Positions 29,854 to 32,736 of a stretch of DNA of 57,697 nt are shown piece by piece. Position 1 is the stretch's first letter. The number at the start of each line of letters is the position of its first letter. The DNA comes from Bacteroidota bacterium. GTDB lineage: Bacteria; Bacteroidota; Bacteroidia; Cytophagales; Amoebophilaceae. The translations under genes were made by a program, and so were the position numbers. Under the pieces are notes generated by a model. The model was not told the origin of the DNA. It searched no databases and saw nothing but the letters and a program-made list of their open reading frames with translations. The stretch covers positions 1-57,697 of the forward strand of contig JAAGZN010000600.1 of assembly GCA_024206165.1 (NCBI GenBank), read 5' to 3'.

Positions 29854-31303
29854 GAACCACTGAAGTCTTAGAAGTTTTTGTTATGAGTTCACTATGTTTG
29901 TATCCTAGATTCCGTAACCTAGAATAAACTGCCCAATCAGCAAGAGGTTTCTTTTTTAAAAAAGACTCTTGTATTTTTCTTGTAAGTTTTTCTGCATATT
30001 CTTTATTCATAAATTCATTTTGCCACTGAGGACCATCTGTCGATATTCCTGTCCCTAATTGTGGACCTGTAATTGTATATCCATATTTTTCGGGATTTGC
30101 TGCTATTTTAGAGATAGGAGCATTTGGATTATCAGTTGTTGGCCTAATATTTAAAGGACTGAAAACAGCATCATCTAAAGGACAATCCTCTTTTTGTAAC
30201 CATTCAACTGTACTCCAAATAGATTCTTCTGATTCTCCTGGCAATCCTACAATAAATGATCCAGTAGTAATTATTTCACCTTTCCATGTTTCTTTAAGAT
30301 AATAAAGAGTTTCTTTTATTTTATCTGGATGTATTCCTTTCCCTATTTCTTTTGCAGCAGCAGGATTTAAAGTTTCTATTCCTATCAAAATAGCCTTAAG
30401 ACCTGACTCAATAAGTAATTCTCTTTGCTCCGGATGTGAATATATAACATCAACTCGTCCATATCCTGTCCATTCTAATTTAAAAGGTAATTGTTGAAAA
30501 AGATTATGCAATCTTATTACTTTTTCATGACTATCATTATAGGTGTCATCGCAAAACATATATCCTGTAGTTCCAAAAAGCTCATAATTACGTATCAACT
30601 CTTCCTTTAATATTTCTGTAGACTTAGTATATTCTCCTGGATTTTTATGTAAAGGATTAGCACAAAATGCACACCTAAAAATACATCCTCTATCTATTTC
30701 TATAGGTAAATGTTCATTTGGGAATAAATAATCTTGTTTTTGCCACATTATTTTTGATTTATAGTAATCATCATAACATGGATAATCTTTATTAGAAATA
30801 ATACTTCCTATTTGTCCAGGAGTAGTAACAAGTTCATTTCCAAATTTTAAATGATTCGCCAATGCGATAACACTTCTATCAGCTAACCCCCAAAACCAAT
30901 AATCTACTCCTTTTAATGTTGTGACATTTGCTTTTCCTCCACCTATTACAATTTTTATTTGGGGATTCCTTTTTTTAAAAATATTAAACATTTCCTGAAC
31001 AAAATCTTCATCTTGTGGCAAATGTCCTGAATATCGATTTTCTTTAGTTCTATCAAGCCTAGAAATTGATGATTTTTTGGTCTTTTTTATTAAAAGAGTT
31101 GTAGCAAATCCAACAAACAATGTGTTGTTATCAATAAATTTATAGGTAATATCCTCAATATCTTTCAAAGTAATATCTGCAAAAAATTCTATAACTTGAG
31201 TGCTATATCCTGCCTTTCGAAGCTCAGTAGCAATTCTATATGCCCCTGCATATCTTCCAAATCCTATTACACCATTAACATCCGTAAATATTATTACATT
31301 CAT
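29789..31303 (-). CDS. B12-binding-domain radical SAM enzyme
   Basis: 504 aa; N-terminal Rossmann-like cobalamin-binding region (MNVIIFTDVNG...AGAYRIATELRKAGY), then IEIDRGCIFRCAFCANP (Cx3Cx2C). Confidence 0.8.
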   Translation of the reverse strand: MNVIIFTDVNGVIGFGRYAGAYRIATELRKAGYSTQVIEFFADITLKDIEDITYKFIDNNTLFVGFATTLLIKKTKKSSISRLDRTKENRYSGHLPQDEDFVQEMFNIFKKRNPQIKIVIGGGKANVTTLKGVDYWFWGLADRSVIALANHLKFGNELVTTPGQIGSIISNKDYPCYDDYYKSKIMWQKQDYLFPNEHLPIEIDRGCIFRCAFCANPLHKNPGEYTKSTEILKEELIRNYELFGTTGYMFCDDTYNDSHEKVIRLHNLFQQLPFKLEWTGYGRVDVIYSHPEQRELLIESGLKAILIGIETLNPAAAKEIGKGIHPDKIKETLYYLKETWKGEIITTGSFIVGLPGESEESIWSTVEWLQKEDCPLDDAVFSPLNIRPTTDNPNAPISKIAANPEKYGYTITGPQLGTGISTDGPQWQNEFMNKEYAEKLTRKIQESFLKKKPLADWAVYSRLRNLGYKHSELITKTSKTSVVLDDATIRKEKMQKDYFKKLLS

Positions 31304-32736
31304 TTTTTATCTCCAAAAATATTTCTAAAACCTTGTATCATTTCAAAAGGTAATATATAATCTCTACAAGATAAATTTGCTCCTTCATAGCCTAACTTTG
31401 TCAACTTTTTATAATGCTTAATAGTATTATCAATATTTCCCTGCCCTAAAGTTAGGTCTATATCTTTAAAAACTGCTGAAAAAACACTAGAAAAAATACA
31501 TCCCATTAAATCATAATCCGATGTACGATAATCTACCATCATGGCAAAAGGATTTTTTTTATCTATAGATGATGGCATATATCTTAATTCATGAATAGGT
31601 TTATTTAATTTTATCATGCCACCTTCTGTAAATAATATATCTCTTTTTTTTATAAATCGTTGAATAGCTTTCACATAATCAAAACAATGTGGAGCTGAAT
31701 CATCAACAATTATTGTTCCCGGTTTAAGCATATCAACATTAAGTACATTTTCAATATTTGTAGCTCCTATTATAAAAGTTGTTTTATAAAAATCGATAGG
31801 AACTTGTGCTTTTGAAATAACTATCTTCACTTCTCCTTTAAACCCAAAACCATCAATTATTTCCTTTTTAATTTGTTCCAATAATTCATATTTTCCAAAC
31901 ACATCACACAATGTAATAGTTAATGGATGAGGAAGCACTTTTAACATTAATCTTAAAGAAGTTAATCCTATTGATCCTAGTCCTAATAAGCCTACTTTTT
32001 CTTGTTCAATAAATCTATTACTCATGCACAAAATTTTTTTAATTGCAAAAATTACTGAACTAGCTGTTGTAGCATGCCCCGTTGAAATTTTTGGGAAATC
32101 TTTTTTTTCAACAACTCTTTTATTTACGTCATTGCCATAATCAGTTGCAGAGGGGAGTAATCCAGTAAGGGAAACTACTTTAGCATCTAAACTTTTTGCA
32201 ATCTCGATTCCAGCCATAATATTATCTAATAAATTTTCTGAATTATTATAAATTTCAAAAGCAAATATCGGTAAAGTTATATGACAAATACGTCCTAATT
32301 CAGTTGTAAAAATTCGTCTAATTTGTGGAAGATTCTTGAACCATTTTTGGATTATTTCATTTTTAGTTAAACCCATATCATGAGGCAATGTATTAGGTAA
32401 ATATCCTAATGCAACTGCATCTACCTTTTGAATTTTTCTAGTATTATATAATGTTAATAAAGAACGTTTTTCGAATTTCAAAAATGAAAAAGAAGATAAC
32501 TGATTAGAAATTTTTGTAATTTTGTTTATTGTTTCTAAACTTTTTTCTGGATTAGAAATGTAATCCTCTTTAAAATAATCACTGATTGCAGCAATACTTT
32601 GATAAGACAATAAAAATTTCACGGAGATATTATGTTCTAACAAAACCGACATTTTAGATACTAACTGGATCGCTTGAAGAGAATGCCCACCTAAATCAAA
32701 AAAATTATCATTAATACTTATATTGTGAACTCCCAA
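31300..32736 (-). CDS. Carrier-protein (T) domain fused to an acyl-ACP-reductase-like NAD(P) Rossmann domain
   Basis: N-terminus ([10 protein letters not shown])[24 protein letters not shown] is a PCP core. The C-terminal ~390 aa have [31 protein letters not shown] (GxGxxG), IIVDDSAPH and [10 protein letters not shown]. These parallel cyanobacterial acyl-ACP reductase (ALGGFTSI, TTGNTHTA, VVGATGDIG, LIDGGYP, MFACFAEAM with the catalytic Cys). No ATG: the frame opens just after a TAA at 32766-32764 and the track start is TTG. Confidence 0.55.
   Translation of the reverse strand: [478 protein letters not shown]

What the first reader, a model, noticed from the sequence alone, without database searches (positions are those of the whole stretch)
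31300..32736. Carrier domain fused to an acyl-ACP-reductase-like (non-SDR) domain: a possible unusual reductive release module, with a ragged 5' end
The N-terminus is a clear PCP core ([14 protein letters not shown]). The following ~390 aa are not the SDR-type terminal R domain of NRPSs (no GxTGFLG-type motif). The motif series [10 protein letters not shown] / STGHATTAS / [12 protein letters not shown] / IIVDDSAPH / [10 protein letters not shown] runs parallel to cyanobacterial acyl-ACP reductase, including a Cys at the position of its catalytic cysteine. That would imply thioester-to-aldehyde release by a different enzyme family. Separately, the PCP lacks its first helix and any ATG: the frame opens as [10 protein letters not shown] right after a TAA, and the track start is TTG. 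The gene may therefore be the 3' remnant of a larger module.
Basis: partly seen in the sequence, partly recalled or inferred. Interest (0 to 1): 0.65.

Follow-up and report, generated by a model that had tools for sequence, protein, structure and literature searches.

The report
Truncated carrier–TAD release module remnant
This gene is the leftover tail (carrier domain plus an acyl-ACP-reductase-like "terminal amidation domain") of a non-ribosomal peptide synthetase module whose front half was replaced by foreign genes. The domain family is already described and crystallised, so the find is a new, damaged member rather than a new enzyme type.

Summary
On the minus strand, 31300..32763 encodes a PCP (GGHS, Ser28) followed by a ~400-aa non-SDR NAD-binding domain.

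That domain is not new. It is 42-45% identical to the CarI "terminal amidation domain" (TAD; PDB 9E4S/9E4X/9E50/9E56; Rankin et al., bioRxiv 2024). My AlphaFold model matches TAD at TM 0.89-0.95 and cyanobacterial AAR at TM ~0.7. It matches shikimate and amino-acid dehydrogenases only weakly. All TAD signature residues are present, including Cys422.

The chemistry (aldehyde or amide release) is unresolved for the whole family.

The "3' remnant" idea is also supported:
- An orthologous Vallitalea cluster has C-A-T-C-A-T-TAD as one 2587-aa ORF.
- In the window, the second C-A (~1000 aa) is replaced by two unrelated genes plus a pseudogene fragment.
- A ~98%-identical seawater-metagenome contig reads straight through the breakpoint (32765/6) as ...[21 protein letters not shown].
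- Helix 1 of the PCP is still encoded, but it lies upstream of the only in-frame start (TTG 32736).

Verdict: a new, 5'-truncated member of a known family. The more unusual thing is its setting: a ~30-kb NRPS cluster lying between phage genes.

The parts
31300..32763 (-). Whole open frame of the PCP-TAD gene (487 codons plus stop). The annotated version starts at TTG 32736 (478 aa).
32563..32763 (-). Peptidyl carrier domain (residues 1-67 in 487-aa numbering). The helix-1 core KLLKIWEQV lies at 32737..32763, upstream of the TTG.
   Evidence: Pfam PP-binding, profile positions 2-66/67. AF2 helices at 2-10, 28-42, 48-53, 57-67.
32680..32682 (-). Ser28 codon of GGHS, the predicted phosphopantetheine attachment site.
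32734..32736 (-). TTG, the only in-frame canonical start. A weak Shine-Dalgarno-like GGGAA lies 6 nt upstream. Starting here deletes PCP helix 1.
32771..32773 (-). ATG one base out of frame. One A fewer in the A5 run (32761..32765) would give [14 protein letters not shown].... As the sequence stands, this ATG opens a 20-codon ORF.
   Evidence: read directly from the sequence
32765..32766 (.). Breakpoint. The close relative in run X2 is collinear up to 32765. It then continues as an open frame (…[10 protein letters not shown]) where the window has TAA.
32491..32562 (-). PCP-TAD linker (residues 68-91), predicted to be disordered.
   Evidence: pLDDT <50 for residues 68-89
31303..32490 (-). TAD (AAR-like) domain, residues 92-487. 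It has a macro-like N-lobe (~92-228) and a Rossmann C-lobe (~229-487).
   Evidence: PDB 9e4s/9e4x E~1e-105. Foldseek TM 0.89-0.95.
32077..32085 (-). S227-T228-G229, equivalent to the CarI Thr2042-Thr2043-Gly2044 motif at the lobe junction.
31966..31983 (-). G261-L-G-S-I-G266, the dinucleotide-binding GxGxxG motif.
31903..31905 (-). Asp287, equivalent to CarI Asp2102. It predicts NAD(H) binding rather than NADP(H).
31690..31704 (-). D354-D355-S-A-P358, equivalent to the CarI Asp2169-Asp2170-Ser-Gly-cisPro2173 nicotinamide loop. Here Gly is replaced by Ala, as in several homologues.
31498..31500 (-). Cys422, equivalent to CarI Cys2238 and AAR Cys294. It is the predicted acyl-accepting nucleophile.
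   Evidence: Invariant in A1 and A2. Equivalence taken.
32890..33091 (-). A ~64-codon fragment with no start codon, homologous (39% identity) to blade 1 of the adjacent beta-propeller gene. It is a pseudogene scar between the insert and the truncated PCP.
33092..36032 (-). Two inserted genes (beta-propeller, 346 aa; unknown, 628 aa). They occupy the place of the missing C2-A2 domains.
   Evidence: GC skew is about -0.5 versus about -0.2 in the flanks.
36068..39505 (-). Upstream NRPS gene TubC_N-C-A-T (1145 aa). It corresponds to residues 1-1095 of the Vallitalea bimodular protein and ends in the T-C linker.
29789..31303 (-). B12-binding radical SAM gene. Its ATG overlaps the PCP-TAD stop (ATGA). 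It is conserved directly after the TAD in Vallitalea (65% identity).

Best explanation
The gene encodes the last two domains of what was the terminal module of a three-module NRPS (A-T, C-A-T, C-A-T-TAD). These are a peptidyl carrier domain and a terminal amidation domain (TAD).

TAD is the NAD(H)-binding, two-lobed, AAR-like chain-release domain first described for carmabin CarI.

In an intact module the steps would be as follows (inferred from CarI TAD and AAR):
1. The peptide sits as a thioester on the Ppant arm of Ser28.
2. The arm enters the NAD tunnel of the TAD.
3. The chain is transferred to Cys422.
4. The chain is released in an NAD(H)-dependent step. The product is a C-terminal amide (the family's proposed role) or, less likely, an aldehyde.

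In this window a rearrangement removed the C and A domains of that module. It cut exactly in the T1-C2 linker and in the A2-T2 linker, and left two unrelated genes plus a pseudogene fragment in their place.

The remaining PCP-TAD frame has no proper start. The only in-frame start is a TTG with a weak RBS, and using it would drop PCP helix 1. The carrier domain has therefore probably lost its function, having no cognate A or C domain. The TAD itself is fully intact and, if translated, could at most act in trans on the carrier of the upstream C-A-T protein.
For: Family assignment:
- phmmer against PDB gives CarI TAD 9e4s/9e4x at E 1e-105 over residues 77-485. A TAD-only profile gives E 5e-187.
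- The AF2 model (pLDDT 85, pTM 0.88) matches TAD structures at TM 0.89-0.95. It matches AAR 6jzq/6jzu/6jzy at TM 0.66-0.72, and other Rossmann enzymes at TM 0.46 or lower.
- All TAD signature residues are present: S/T-T-G, GxGxxG, Asp287, the DDS(A/G)P loop and Cys422.
- A weak NCBIfam hit to the PigE thioester-reductase region (E 2.5e-9) ties it to the same superfamily.

Remnant status:
- Vallitalea sp. locus L065 has the same gene order: MT, M19 dipeptidase, A-T, NRPS, B12-rSAM, HemN-like rSAM. Amino-acid identity is 45-65%.
- Its NRPS is one 2587-aa ORF, TubC_N-C-A-T-C-A-T-TAD.
- The window's C-A-T aligns to its residues 1-1095 and the window's T-TAD to residues 2110-2584. Residues 1096-2109 have no counterpart in the window.
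- A seawater-metagenome contig (run X2) has 2 mismatches in 112 nt. It diverges exactly at 32765/6 and reads [21 protein letters not shown], the canonical A-T linker and PCP N-terminus.
- X2 carries pieces of the same cluster at 92-98% identity.
- Among the 80 best of 181 genomic TAD loci, nearly every one with enough upstream sequence has the TAD at the end of an NRPS ORF of 1000 aa or more. The few shorter cases I examined still have NRPS A-T or C-A-T coding sequence directly upstream, in the same or a shifted frame. One N-terminally truncated TAD near a contig end is the exception. None is a bona fide T-TAD-only gene.
- A beta-propeller pseudogene fragment lies just upstream of the breakpoint.
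- The left junction is covered by an independent contig of run X1 spanning 35992-37362.
Against: - The right junction (32728-32996) is not covered by any public run I could lay, so an assembly error there is not excluded.
- All family-invariant TAD residues and the helix-1 codons are intact.
- The four X2/window differences that could be placed within the gene are all at third codon positions.
- The stop overlaps the start of the next gene (ATGA).
- These last three points fit a gene that is still used, or one that was truncated very recently.
- No expression data: two RNA runs from the same sample as X1 gave nothing.
- The chemistry of TADs has never been shown in vitro, so 'amidation' is only a correlation.
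Confidence: 0.8

Rival explanations
1. Functional stand-alone T-TAD. The gene is intact and is translated with helix 1. This could happen through the out-of-frame ATG 32773 if the A5 run is a base-calling error or a slippery site, giving [11 protein letters not shown].... Alternatively a rare initiator such as ATA 32751 could be used. The carrier would be loaded in trans, for example by the stand-alone acyl-CoA-ligase-like enzyme at 54634..56118. Or the TAD would offload the dipeptide from the C-A-T protein.
For: - The helix-1 codons are preserved and match the PCP profile.
- An ATG lies four codons upstream, off by a single base in a homopolymer.
- All catalytic residues are intact.
- The gene is translationally coupled to the downstream rSAM gene.
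- CarI PCP and TAD interact in trans in vitro.
- Rankin et al. report discrete TAD homologues, their SSN cluster 4.
Against: - The X2 contig has the same A-run lengths downstream of the breakpoint and no indel.
- There is no Shine-Dalgarno sequence before ATG 32773, whereas phage and cluster genes here usually have GGAG-type sites.
- The stand-alone ligase resembles fatty-acyl or MenE CoA ligases, and a counterpart also exists next to the intact Vallitalea cluster.
- Synteny and X2 show that this state is derived from a fused module.
Confidence: 0.15
2. The domain is a thioester reductase that works like AAR or the PigE N-terminal domain. It releases the chain as an aldehyde, possibly for a downstream aminotransferase.
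For: - After TAD, AAR is the closest fold.
- The Cys is at the AAR Cys294-equivalent position.
- There is sequence similarity to the PigE reductase region, which is implicated in thioester-to-aldehyde reduction.
- A DegT-type aminotransferase is in the cluster.
- Rankin et al. themselves keep a route of reduction, amination and re-oxidation open.
Against: - The nearest homologues (CarI, VatR, HcaD) sit in pathways whose products end in amides, not aldehydes or alcohols.
- The Asp287 equivalent excludes NADPH, which is AAR's cofactor.
- CarI and VatR TADs released nothing with NAD(H) under many conditions.
- An Asp stacked on the nicotinamide (here D355) replaces the Gly of AAR.
Confidence: 0.25
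3. Assembly artefact. The break at 32765/6 is a mis-join in an AT-rich, low-coverage stretch, and the real genome has an intact C-A-T-TAD gene.
For: - No public contig spans 32728-32996.
- Depth in X1 is only ~4-6.
Against: - The other side of the insert, where C-A-T stops and the unk628 gene starts, is spanned by an X1 contig at 100% identity.
- An artefact would need two mis-joins that leave same-strand, operon-like spacing.
- The propeller pseudogene fragment continues from the propeller gene in a biologically sensible way.
Confidence: 0.07

Closest known systems
Terminal amidation domain (TAD) of CarI, VatR and HcaD (carmabin, vatiamide, hectoramide NRPSs). PDB 9E4S/9E4U/9E4X/9E50/9E56. 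Rankin et al., bioRxiv 10.1101/2024.10.28.620694.
   Same: - 42-45% identity over the whole ~400 aa.
- Same two-lobed fold (TM 0.89-0.95).
- Same position directly after a PCP, with a ~25-residue linker.
- Same GxGxxG, NAD-selecting Asp, Asp-Asp-Ser-x-Pro loop, (S/T)-T-G motif and invariant Cys.
   Different: - The module in front of it is gone: no C or A domain and no proper start codon.
- Thr2042 is Ser and Gly2172 is Ala here; both are seen in other homologues.
- The host is a ~28% GC, Vallitalea-like or phage context rather than a cyanobacterium.
Cyanobacterial acyl-ACP reductase (AAR; PDB 6JZQ/6JZU/6JZY)
   Same: - Same overall fold class (Foldseek E~1e-13, TM 0.66-0.72).
- Cysteine nucleophile next to the nicotinamide.
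- Takes an acyl chain from a Ppant arm.
   Different: - Only 14% identity, undetectable by sequence profile.
- AAR is a stand-alone protein that uses NADPH and pairs with ADO.
- Its N-lobe differs (no dimer, no inserted strand and helix).
- The Asp stacked on the nicotinamide in TAD is Gly in AAR.
PigE / TamH thioester-reductase domain (prodigiosin and tambjamine pathways)
   Same: - Weak sequence match to the Rossmann half (NCBIfam NF053554, E 2.5e-9).
- AAR-like, with a conserved Cys.
- Acts on a thioester in a secondary-metabolite pathway.
   Different: - Fused to a class III aminotransferase rather than to a PCP.
- Its product is an aldehyde that is then transaminated.
- The score is far below the family cut-off (36 versus 850 bits).
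SDR-type NRPS terminal reductase (R) domain (Pfam NAD_binding_4, e.g. AusA, MxcG)
   Same: C-terminal position after a PCP, and nicotinamide-dependent chain release.
   Different: It is a different fold and family. There is no Pfam hit, no TGxxGxxG or YxxxK motif, and no catalytic Cys.
Vallitalea sp. MAG McD1.25 NRPS (locus L065, 2587 aa, TubC_N-C-A-T-C-A-T-TAD)
   Same: - Orthologous cluster with the same neighbours: MT, M19 dipeptidase, A-T, B12-rSAM and HemN-like rSAM.
- 45-48% identity to the window's C-A-T and T-TAD.
   Different: - It is one uninterrupted gene.
- It has no beta-propeller or unk628 insert.
- It has no phage genes within the 10 kb fetched, and is followed by ABC exporters.

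Membership tests
TAD (terminal amidation domain, CarI type) | Significant full-length sequence similarity to crystallised CarI TAD | tested here: met
   E 1e-105, residues 77-485. Profile search E 5e-187.
TAD (terminal amidation domain, CarI type) | Two-lobed fold: macro-like N-lobe plus Rossmann C-lobe | tested here: met
   AF2 model with pLDDT 85. Foldseek TM 0.89-0.95 and rmsd ~2 A to 9e4x/9e50/9e56.
TAD (terminal amidation domain, CarI type) | Invariant cysteine (CarI Cys2238) at the start of a helix in the cleft | tested here: met
   Cys422 in the GC(I/V/A)FS motif is invariant in A1 and A2 and aligned to the CarI GCAFS motif.
TAD (terminal amidation domain, CarI type) | GxGxxG plus an acidic residue that selects NAD(H) (CarI Asp2102) | tested here: met
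   G261LGSIG266 and D287, with the same 21-residue spacing as CarI.
TAD (terminal amidation domain, CarI type) | Thr-Thr-Gly junction motif and Asp-Asp-Ser-Gly-cisPro loop | tested here: met
   STG (227-229) and DDSAP (354-358). The Ser and Ala variants also occur in other homologues of A1.
TAD (terminal amidation domain, CarI type) | Located at the C-terminus of a complete terminal NRPS module (…A-PCP-TAD) | tested here: not met
   Only PCP-TAD remains. C and A are missing and there is no proper start. The ancestral state met this feature.
TAD (terminal amidation domain, CarI type) | Releases product as a C-terminal amide | not testable with these tools
   This has not been shown for any member. 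CarI and VatR gave no release in vitro.
Acyl-ACP reductase (AAR, cyanobacterial alkane pathway) | Sequence-level membership | tested here: not met
   No AAR chain found at E up to 10 with the TAD profile. Structural alignments show 14% identity.
Acyl-ACP reductase (AAR, cyanobacterial alkane pathway) | Shared fold with a Cys nucleophile beside the nicotinamide | tested here: met
   Foldseek E~1e-13, TM 0.66-0.72. The Cys equivalence is taken from Rankin et al., not superposed residue by residue here.
Acyl-ACP reductase (AAR, cyanobacterial alkane pathway) | NADPH-dependent, stand-alone, partnered with aldehyde-deformylating oxygenase | tested here: not met
   Asp287 predicts NAD rather than NADP. 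The domain is fused to a PCP. No ferritin-like ADO is found among the neighbours scanned.
SDR-type NRPS R domain (PF07993 NAD_binding_4) | Pfam NAD_binding_4 or Epimerase hit with TGxxGxxG and YxxxK | tested here: not met
   Only PP-binding is found by Pfam at E up to 0.01.
Peptidyl carrier protein (PF00550) | Four-helix bundle with (L/F)GG(H/D)S(L/I) Ser at the start of helix 2 | tested here: met
   Pfam profile positions 2-66/67, E 8e-13. AF2 gives four helices.
Peptidyl carrier protein (PF00550) | Whole domain lies downstream of a usable start codon | tested here: not met
   Helix 1 (32737..32763) lies upstream of the only in-frame start, TTG 32736.
   These matches rank below TAD and AAR: E 1e-5 to 1e-6, TM 0.46 or lower. 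Sequence hits are malic enzyme at E 1e-3 and FolD at E 0.3-0.6. The Cys is invariant.

The most novel reading that the evidence does not exclude
The truncated gene is not dead. It is translated from TTG 32736 (or through a one-base shift from ATG 32773) and supplies a free-standing TAD. This TAD offloads the shortened, two-residue product from the carrier of the upstream C-A-T protein in trans. That would be a naturally 'module-deleted' NRPS with a trans-acting TAD, carried on a phage genome. It would give a minimal system in which the still-unknown TAD chemistry (amide or aldehyde) could be assayed.
Probability: 0.15. Interest if true: 0.6.

Novelty: new member of a known kind. Interest (0 to 1): 0.35.

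Why it matters
The T-plus-AAR-like fusion is therefore not a discovery in itself.

The value here is mostly as a correct annotation:
- The gene should be labelled a 5'-truncated PCP-TAD. It is not a 'phosphopantetheine-binding protein' or an 'amino acid dehydrogenase'.
- The cluster should be read as a three-module NRPS that lost one C-A pair.

Two things give it some residual interest:
- It is a clean natural example of a C-A unit excised exactly at inter-domain linkers. That is relevant to NRPS evolution and engineering.
- The TAD's real chemistry is still unknown. The intact relatives (Vallitalea, the X2 metagenome) form a small three-module cluster that could be expressed to find out what a TAD does.

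The phage setting of the whole cluster is the more unusual feature. It deserves its own look.

Tried and rejected
- Exact-sequence look-up of a window protein in the assembly index found nothing on record.
- Viral contigs (IMG/VR), searched with the single protein and with the alignment, gave only PCP matches and no TAD.
- GenBank phages by tblastn likewise gave only PCP matches.
- Sequence-profile detection of AAR in the PDB failed. Only the fold comparison shows the relation.
- I looked for bona fide stand-alone T-TAD genes among homologues. The short database entries start inside A-domain motifs or at contig ends. The short genomic ORFs I examined (L085, L059, L049, L011, L062) are pieces of larger NRPS genes broken by frameshifts. 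L078 is an N-terminally truncated TAD near a contig end with no NRPS upstream.
- I searched for leftover C2/A2 pseudogene fragments in 32766-36067 and found none.
- I tested whether the two T domains (C-A-T versus T-TAD) are duplicates created by the insertion. They are not; the sequences differ.
- RNA runs from the same sample carried no signal.
- Neither run covers the right junction.
- A literature search for a demonstrated TAD activity after the 2024 preprint found nothing in the library.
- The inserted 628-aa protein has no hit in Pfam, PHROGs or phage tblastn.

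
Full report
**1. What is in the sequence**

The feature lies on the minus strand. The ORF listing gives a 478-aa ORF at 31300..32736 that starts with TTG. Translating further upstream shows the frame is open from 32763, directly after TGA-TAA-TAA, and reads [34 protein letters not shown]....

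Pfam finds only PP-binding in the 487-aa frame (E 8e-13), matching profile positions 2-66 of 67 from residue 1 onward. It finds no SDR or NAD_binding_4 domain. Helix 1 of the carrier domain is therefore still encoded, but it lies upstream of the only in-frame ATG/GTG/TTG. The nearest ATG (32773..32771) is one base out of frame. One A fewer in the A5 run 32761..32765 would give [14 protein letters not shown].

The stop codon overlaps the ATG of the next gene, a B12-binding radical SAM enzyme, as ATGA.

**2. What the C-terminal 400 aa are**

A phmmer search of PDB sequences gives two chains labelled 'amino acid adenylation domain protein' (9e4s, 9e4x and relatives) at E 1e-105 over residues 77-485. 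These are the 'TAD from the carmabin biosynthetic pathway' (titles), described by Rankin et al. (bioRxiv 10.1101/2024.10.28.620694).

According to that paper:
- It is a dimer of two-lobed subunits, each with a macro-like N-lobe and a Rossmann C-lobe.
- It binds NAD(H) but not NADP(H).
- It has an invariant Cys2238 lying 4 Å from nicotinamide C4, which the PCP's Ppant arm reaches through the NAD tunnel.
- Its closest structural relative is cyanobacterial acyl-ACP reductase.
- No turnover could be obtained in vitro.

An AlphaFold2 model built on a 14-sequence alignment (pLDDT 85, pTM 0.88) was searched against the PDB with Foldseek:
- TAD structures come first (TM 0.89-0.95, 42-43% identity).
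- AAR follows (6jzq/6jzu/6jzy; E~1e-13, TM 0.66-0.72, 14% identity).
- Generic Rossmann enzymes come only after that: erythronate-4-phosphate, tryptophan, malic and shikimate dehydrogenases (E 1e-5 to 1e-7, TM 0.46 or lower).

The signature residues map one-to-one with identical spacing (487-aa numbering):

| Window residue | CarI equivalent |
|---|---|
| S227-T228-G229 | T2042-T2043-G2044 |
| G261xGxxG266 | G2076-G2081 |
| D287 | D2102 (NAD selectivity) |
| D354-D355-S-A-P358 | D2169-D2170-S-G-P2173 |
| C422 | C2238 |

NCBIfam also gives a weak hit of residues 163-387 to the N-terminal part of PigE (E 2.5e-9). That region is AAR-like and is implicated in thioester reduction (PMC8341465).

**3. 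How common the fusion is**

The big protein collection returns 219 relatives. The best is only 47% identical. Most carry AMP-binding plus PP-binding in front, and JGI calls many of them 'predicted amino acid dehydrogenase/acyl carrier protein'.

A scan of one genome per GTDB species with a TAD-only alignment found 181 loci in Cyanobacteria, Chloroflexota, Verrucomicrobiota, Nitrospirota, Acidobacteriota, Clostridia and others.

In the 80 best loci, nearly every one with enough upstream sequence has the TAD at the end of an NRPS ORF of 1000 aa or more, with the PCP serine 65-84 residues before the TAD. The few shorter ORFs I examined still have A-T or C-A-T coding sequence directly upstream, in the same or a shifted frame. 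One (L078) is an N-terminally truncated TAD near a contig end with nothing upstream. None is a bona fide T-TAD-only gene. No TAD was found in IMG/VR viral contigs or GenBank phages.

**4. The ragged 5' end is a truncation**

*(a) Synteny.* Locus L065 (Vallitalea sp. MAG) carries the same gene order with 45-65% amino-acid identity:
- SAM methyltransferase
- M19 dipeptidase
- A-T (622 aa)
- one 2587-aa ORF, TubC_N-C-A-T-C-A-T-TAD
- B12-rSAM (65% identity)
- HemN-like rSAM (51% identity)

The window's C-A-T protein (36068..39505) aligns to residues 1-1095 of that ORF, and the window's PCP-TAD to residues 2110-2584. Residues 1096-2109 (C2-A2) have no counterpart in the window. The window's C-A-T ends 29 residues after the end of its alignment, in the T-C linker. 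The PCP-TAD frame opens in the A-T linker, just before helix 1.

*(b) A near-identical relative.* Run X2, a seawater metagenome, holds pieces of this cluster at 92-98% identity. One 151-nt contig matches 32654..32765 with 2 mismatches and no gap, then departs from the window exactly at 32765/6. Its next 30 letters, in the gene's frame, read [10 protein letters not shown] and join [11 protein letters not shown]. That is the canonical '...APRxxxE..L..IW..VLG' start of a PCP inside a longer protein. Vallitalea has FRAPRNSLEKTLCRIWKEVL at the same place.

*(c) What fills the gap.* In place of C2-A2 there are three elements:
- a 628-aa protein with no family match;
- a TolB-like beta-propeller protein;
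- a 64-codon fragment with no start codon, 39% identical to the first blade of that propeller gene.

This stretch has a distinct GC skew, about -0.5 against about -0.2 in the flanks.

*(d) Independent support for the junctions.* The left junction is spanned at 100% identity by a contig of run X1 covering 35992-37362. The right junction (32728-32996) is not covered by any run. That is the main residual caveat.

**5. Is the remnant still used?**

This is unknown.

Points in favour:
- All invariant residues are intact.
- The four window/X2 differences that could be placed within the gene are at third codon positions.
- The gene is coupled to the downstream gene.
- TTG 32736 has a weak GGGAA six bases upstream, comparable to some other cluster genes.

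Points against:
- A TTG start removes PCP helix 1.
- There is no C or A domain to feed this carrier.
- There is no Shine-Dalgarno sequence before the shifted ATG.
- There is no RNA evidence.

The most the protein could do is act as a trans TAD on the upstream carrier. CarI PCP and TAD do meet in trans in vitro.

**6. Mechanism**

*Shown for relatives:* NAD(H) binding, and Ppant access to the Cys.

*Inferred here:* peptidyl-S-Ppant on Ser28 is transthioesterified to Cys422. Release then follows as an amide, by ammonia attack or by a reduce-aminate-reoxidise cycle, or as an aldehyde.

So do the predicted NAD(H) specificity, the Asp stacked on the nicotinamide, and the lack of NAD(P)H-driven release. 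Neither mechanism has been demonstrated.

**7. Setting**

The window is phage-like at both ends:
- terminase large subunit
- portal
- head-morphogenesis protein
- integrase
- Gam-like protein
- Sak4-like ATPase
- DNA methyltransferase
- a DUF2213 head-maturation protease at 56121..57452

The ~30-kb NRPS cluster lies between them. It includes SbnA/SbnB for L-2,3-diaminopropionate, an Sfp-type PPTase, an IOR-like oxidoreductase, three radical SAM enzymes and a pentapeptide-repeat protein. A survey of prophage BGCs reported almost only bacteriocins and just a partial NRPS-like case (bioRxiv 10.1101/2020.10.01.322628). The setting is therefore more unusual than the domain.

**8. Verdict**

The AAR-like interpretation is correct but already known as the TAD family. 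The remnant idea is supported. The aldehyde-release idea remains unproven and is less likely than amidation. This is a new member of a known kind, in a degraded state.

Noticed in passing
window 1..25700 and 56121..57452 (phage genes) flanking 25736..56118 (cluster): A ~30-kb NRPS biosynthetic cluster sits between phage-type genes, all on one strand. The phage genes are TerL 7739..9211, portal 6363..7748, head morphogenesis 5503..6363, integrase 11769..12671, Gam-like 23837..24403, Sak4-like 22430..23311 and head-maturation protease 56121..57452. TerL is at most 38% identical to any GenBank phage. A multi-module NRPS cluster in a phage or prophage is rare according to a survey of prophage BGCs.
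   Followed up: partly
window 43279..45292: An SbnA/SbnB pair scores above the NCBIfam equivalog cut-offs (421 and 382 bits). The cluster probably makes L-2,3-diaminopropionate as a building block.
   Followed up: partly
window 32890..33091: A fragment with no start codon (…LFSSHRVNELTRYVYLLEKGKLTKLGIEGFSPSISPNGRYVSSFYDGNNLVIYDLRKKRIKSNIK*) is 39% identical to residues 34-97 of the adjacent beta-propeller protein. It looks like a truncated second copy, i.e. a rearrangement scar.
   Followed up: yes
window 33000..36000: GC skew is -0.37 to -0.50 here against about -0.1 to -0.3 elsewhere. The two genes in this stretch (628 aa with no Pfam, PHROG or phage match; TolB-like propeller) look like foreign cargo inside the cluster.
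   Followed up: partly
window 29173..29853: A Qnr/MfpA-like pentapeptide-repeat protein lies inside the cluster and is absent from the Vallitalea counterpart. It may be a self-protection gene, hinting at a topoisomerase-targeting product. The listed TTG start overlaps the rSAM gene by 65 nt, and an internal ATG (…MNNFNDIEY) is the likelier start.
   Followed up: no
window 37786..37792: In run X1, about half the contig depth shows a T inserted after 37786 and one base deleted at 37792, inside the C-A-T NRPS gene. This is a compensated two-indel variant, or heterogeneity in the population.
   Followed up: no
L065 (Vallitalea sp. MAG, NZ_JAOARO010000039.1) 81..20534: This is an intact orthologous cluster: MT, M19 dipeptidase, A-T, C-A-T-C-A-T-TAD, B12-rSAM, HemN-like rSAM, acyl-CoA-ligase-like enzyme and two ABC exporters. 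It has no phage genes in the 10 kb fetched. It is a good candidate for finding the product and the TAD's chemistry.
   Followed up: partly
window 25736..26803 and 24776..25240: A Fic-domain protein with a C-terminal HTH, and an LPD29 'polyvalent protein' domain gene, lie at the boundary between the cluster and the phage replication genes.
   Followed up: no
window 41392..42468: An M19 membrane-dipeptidase gene is conserved next to the NRPS in both the window and Vallitalea (56% identity). It may process or detoxify the peptide product.
   Followed up: no
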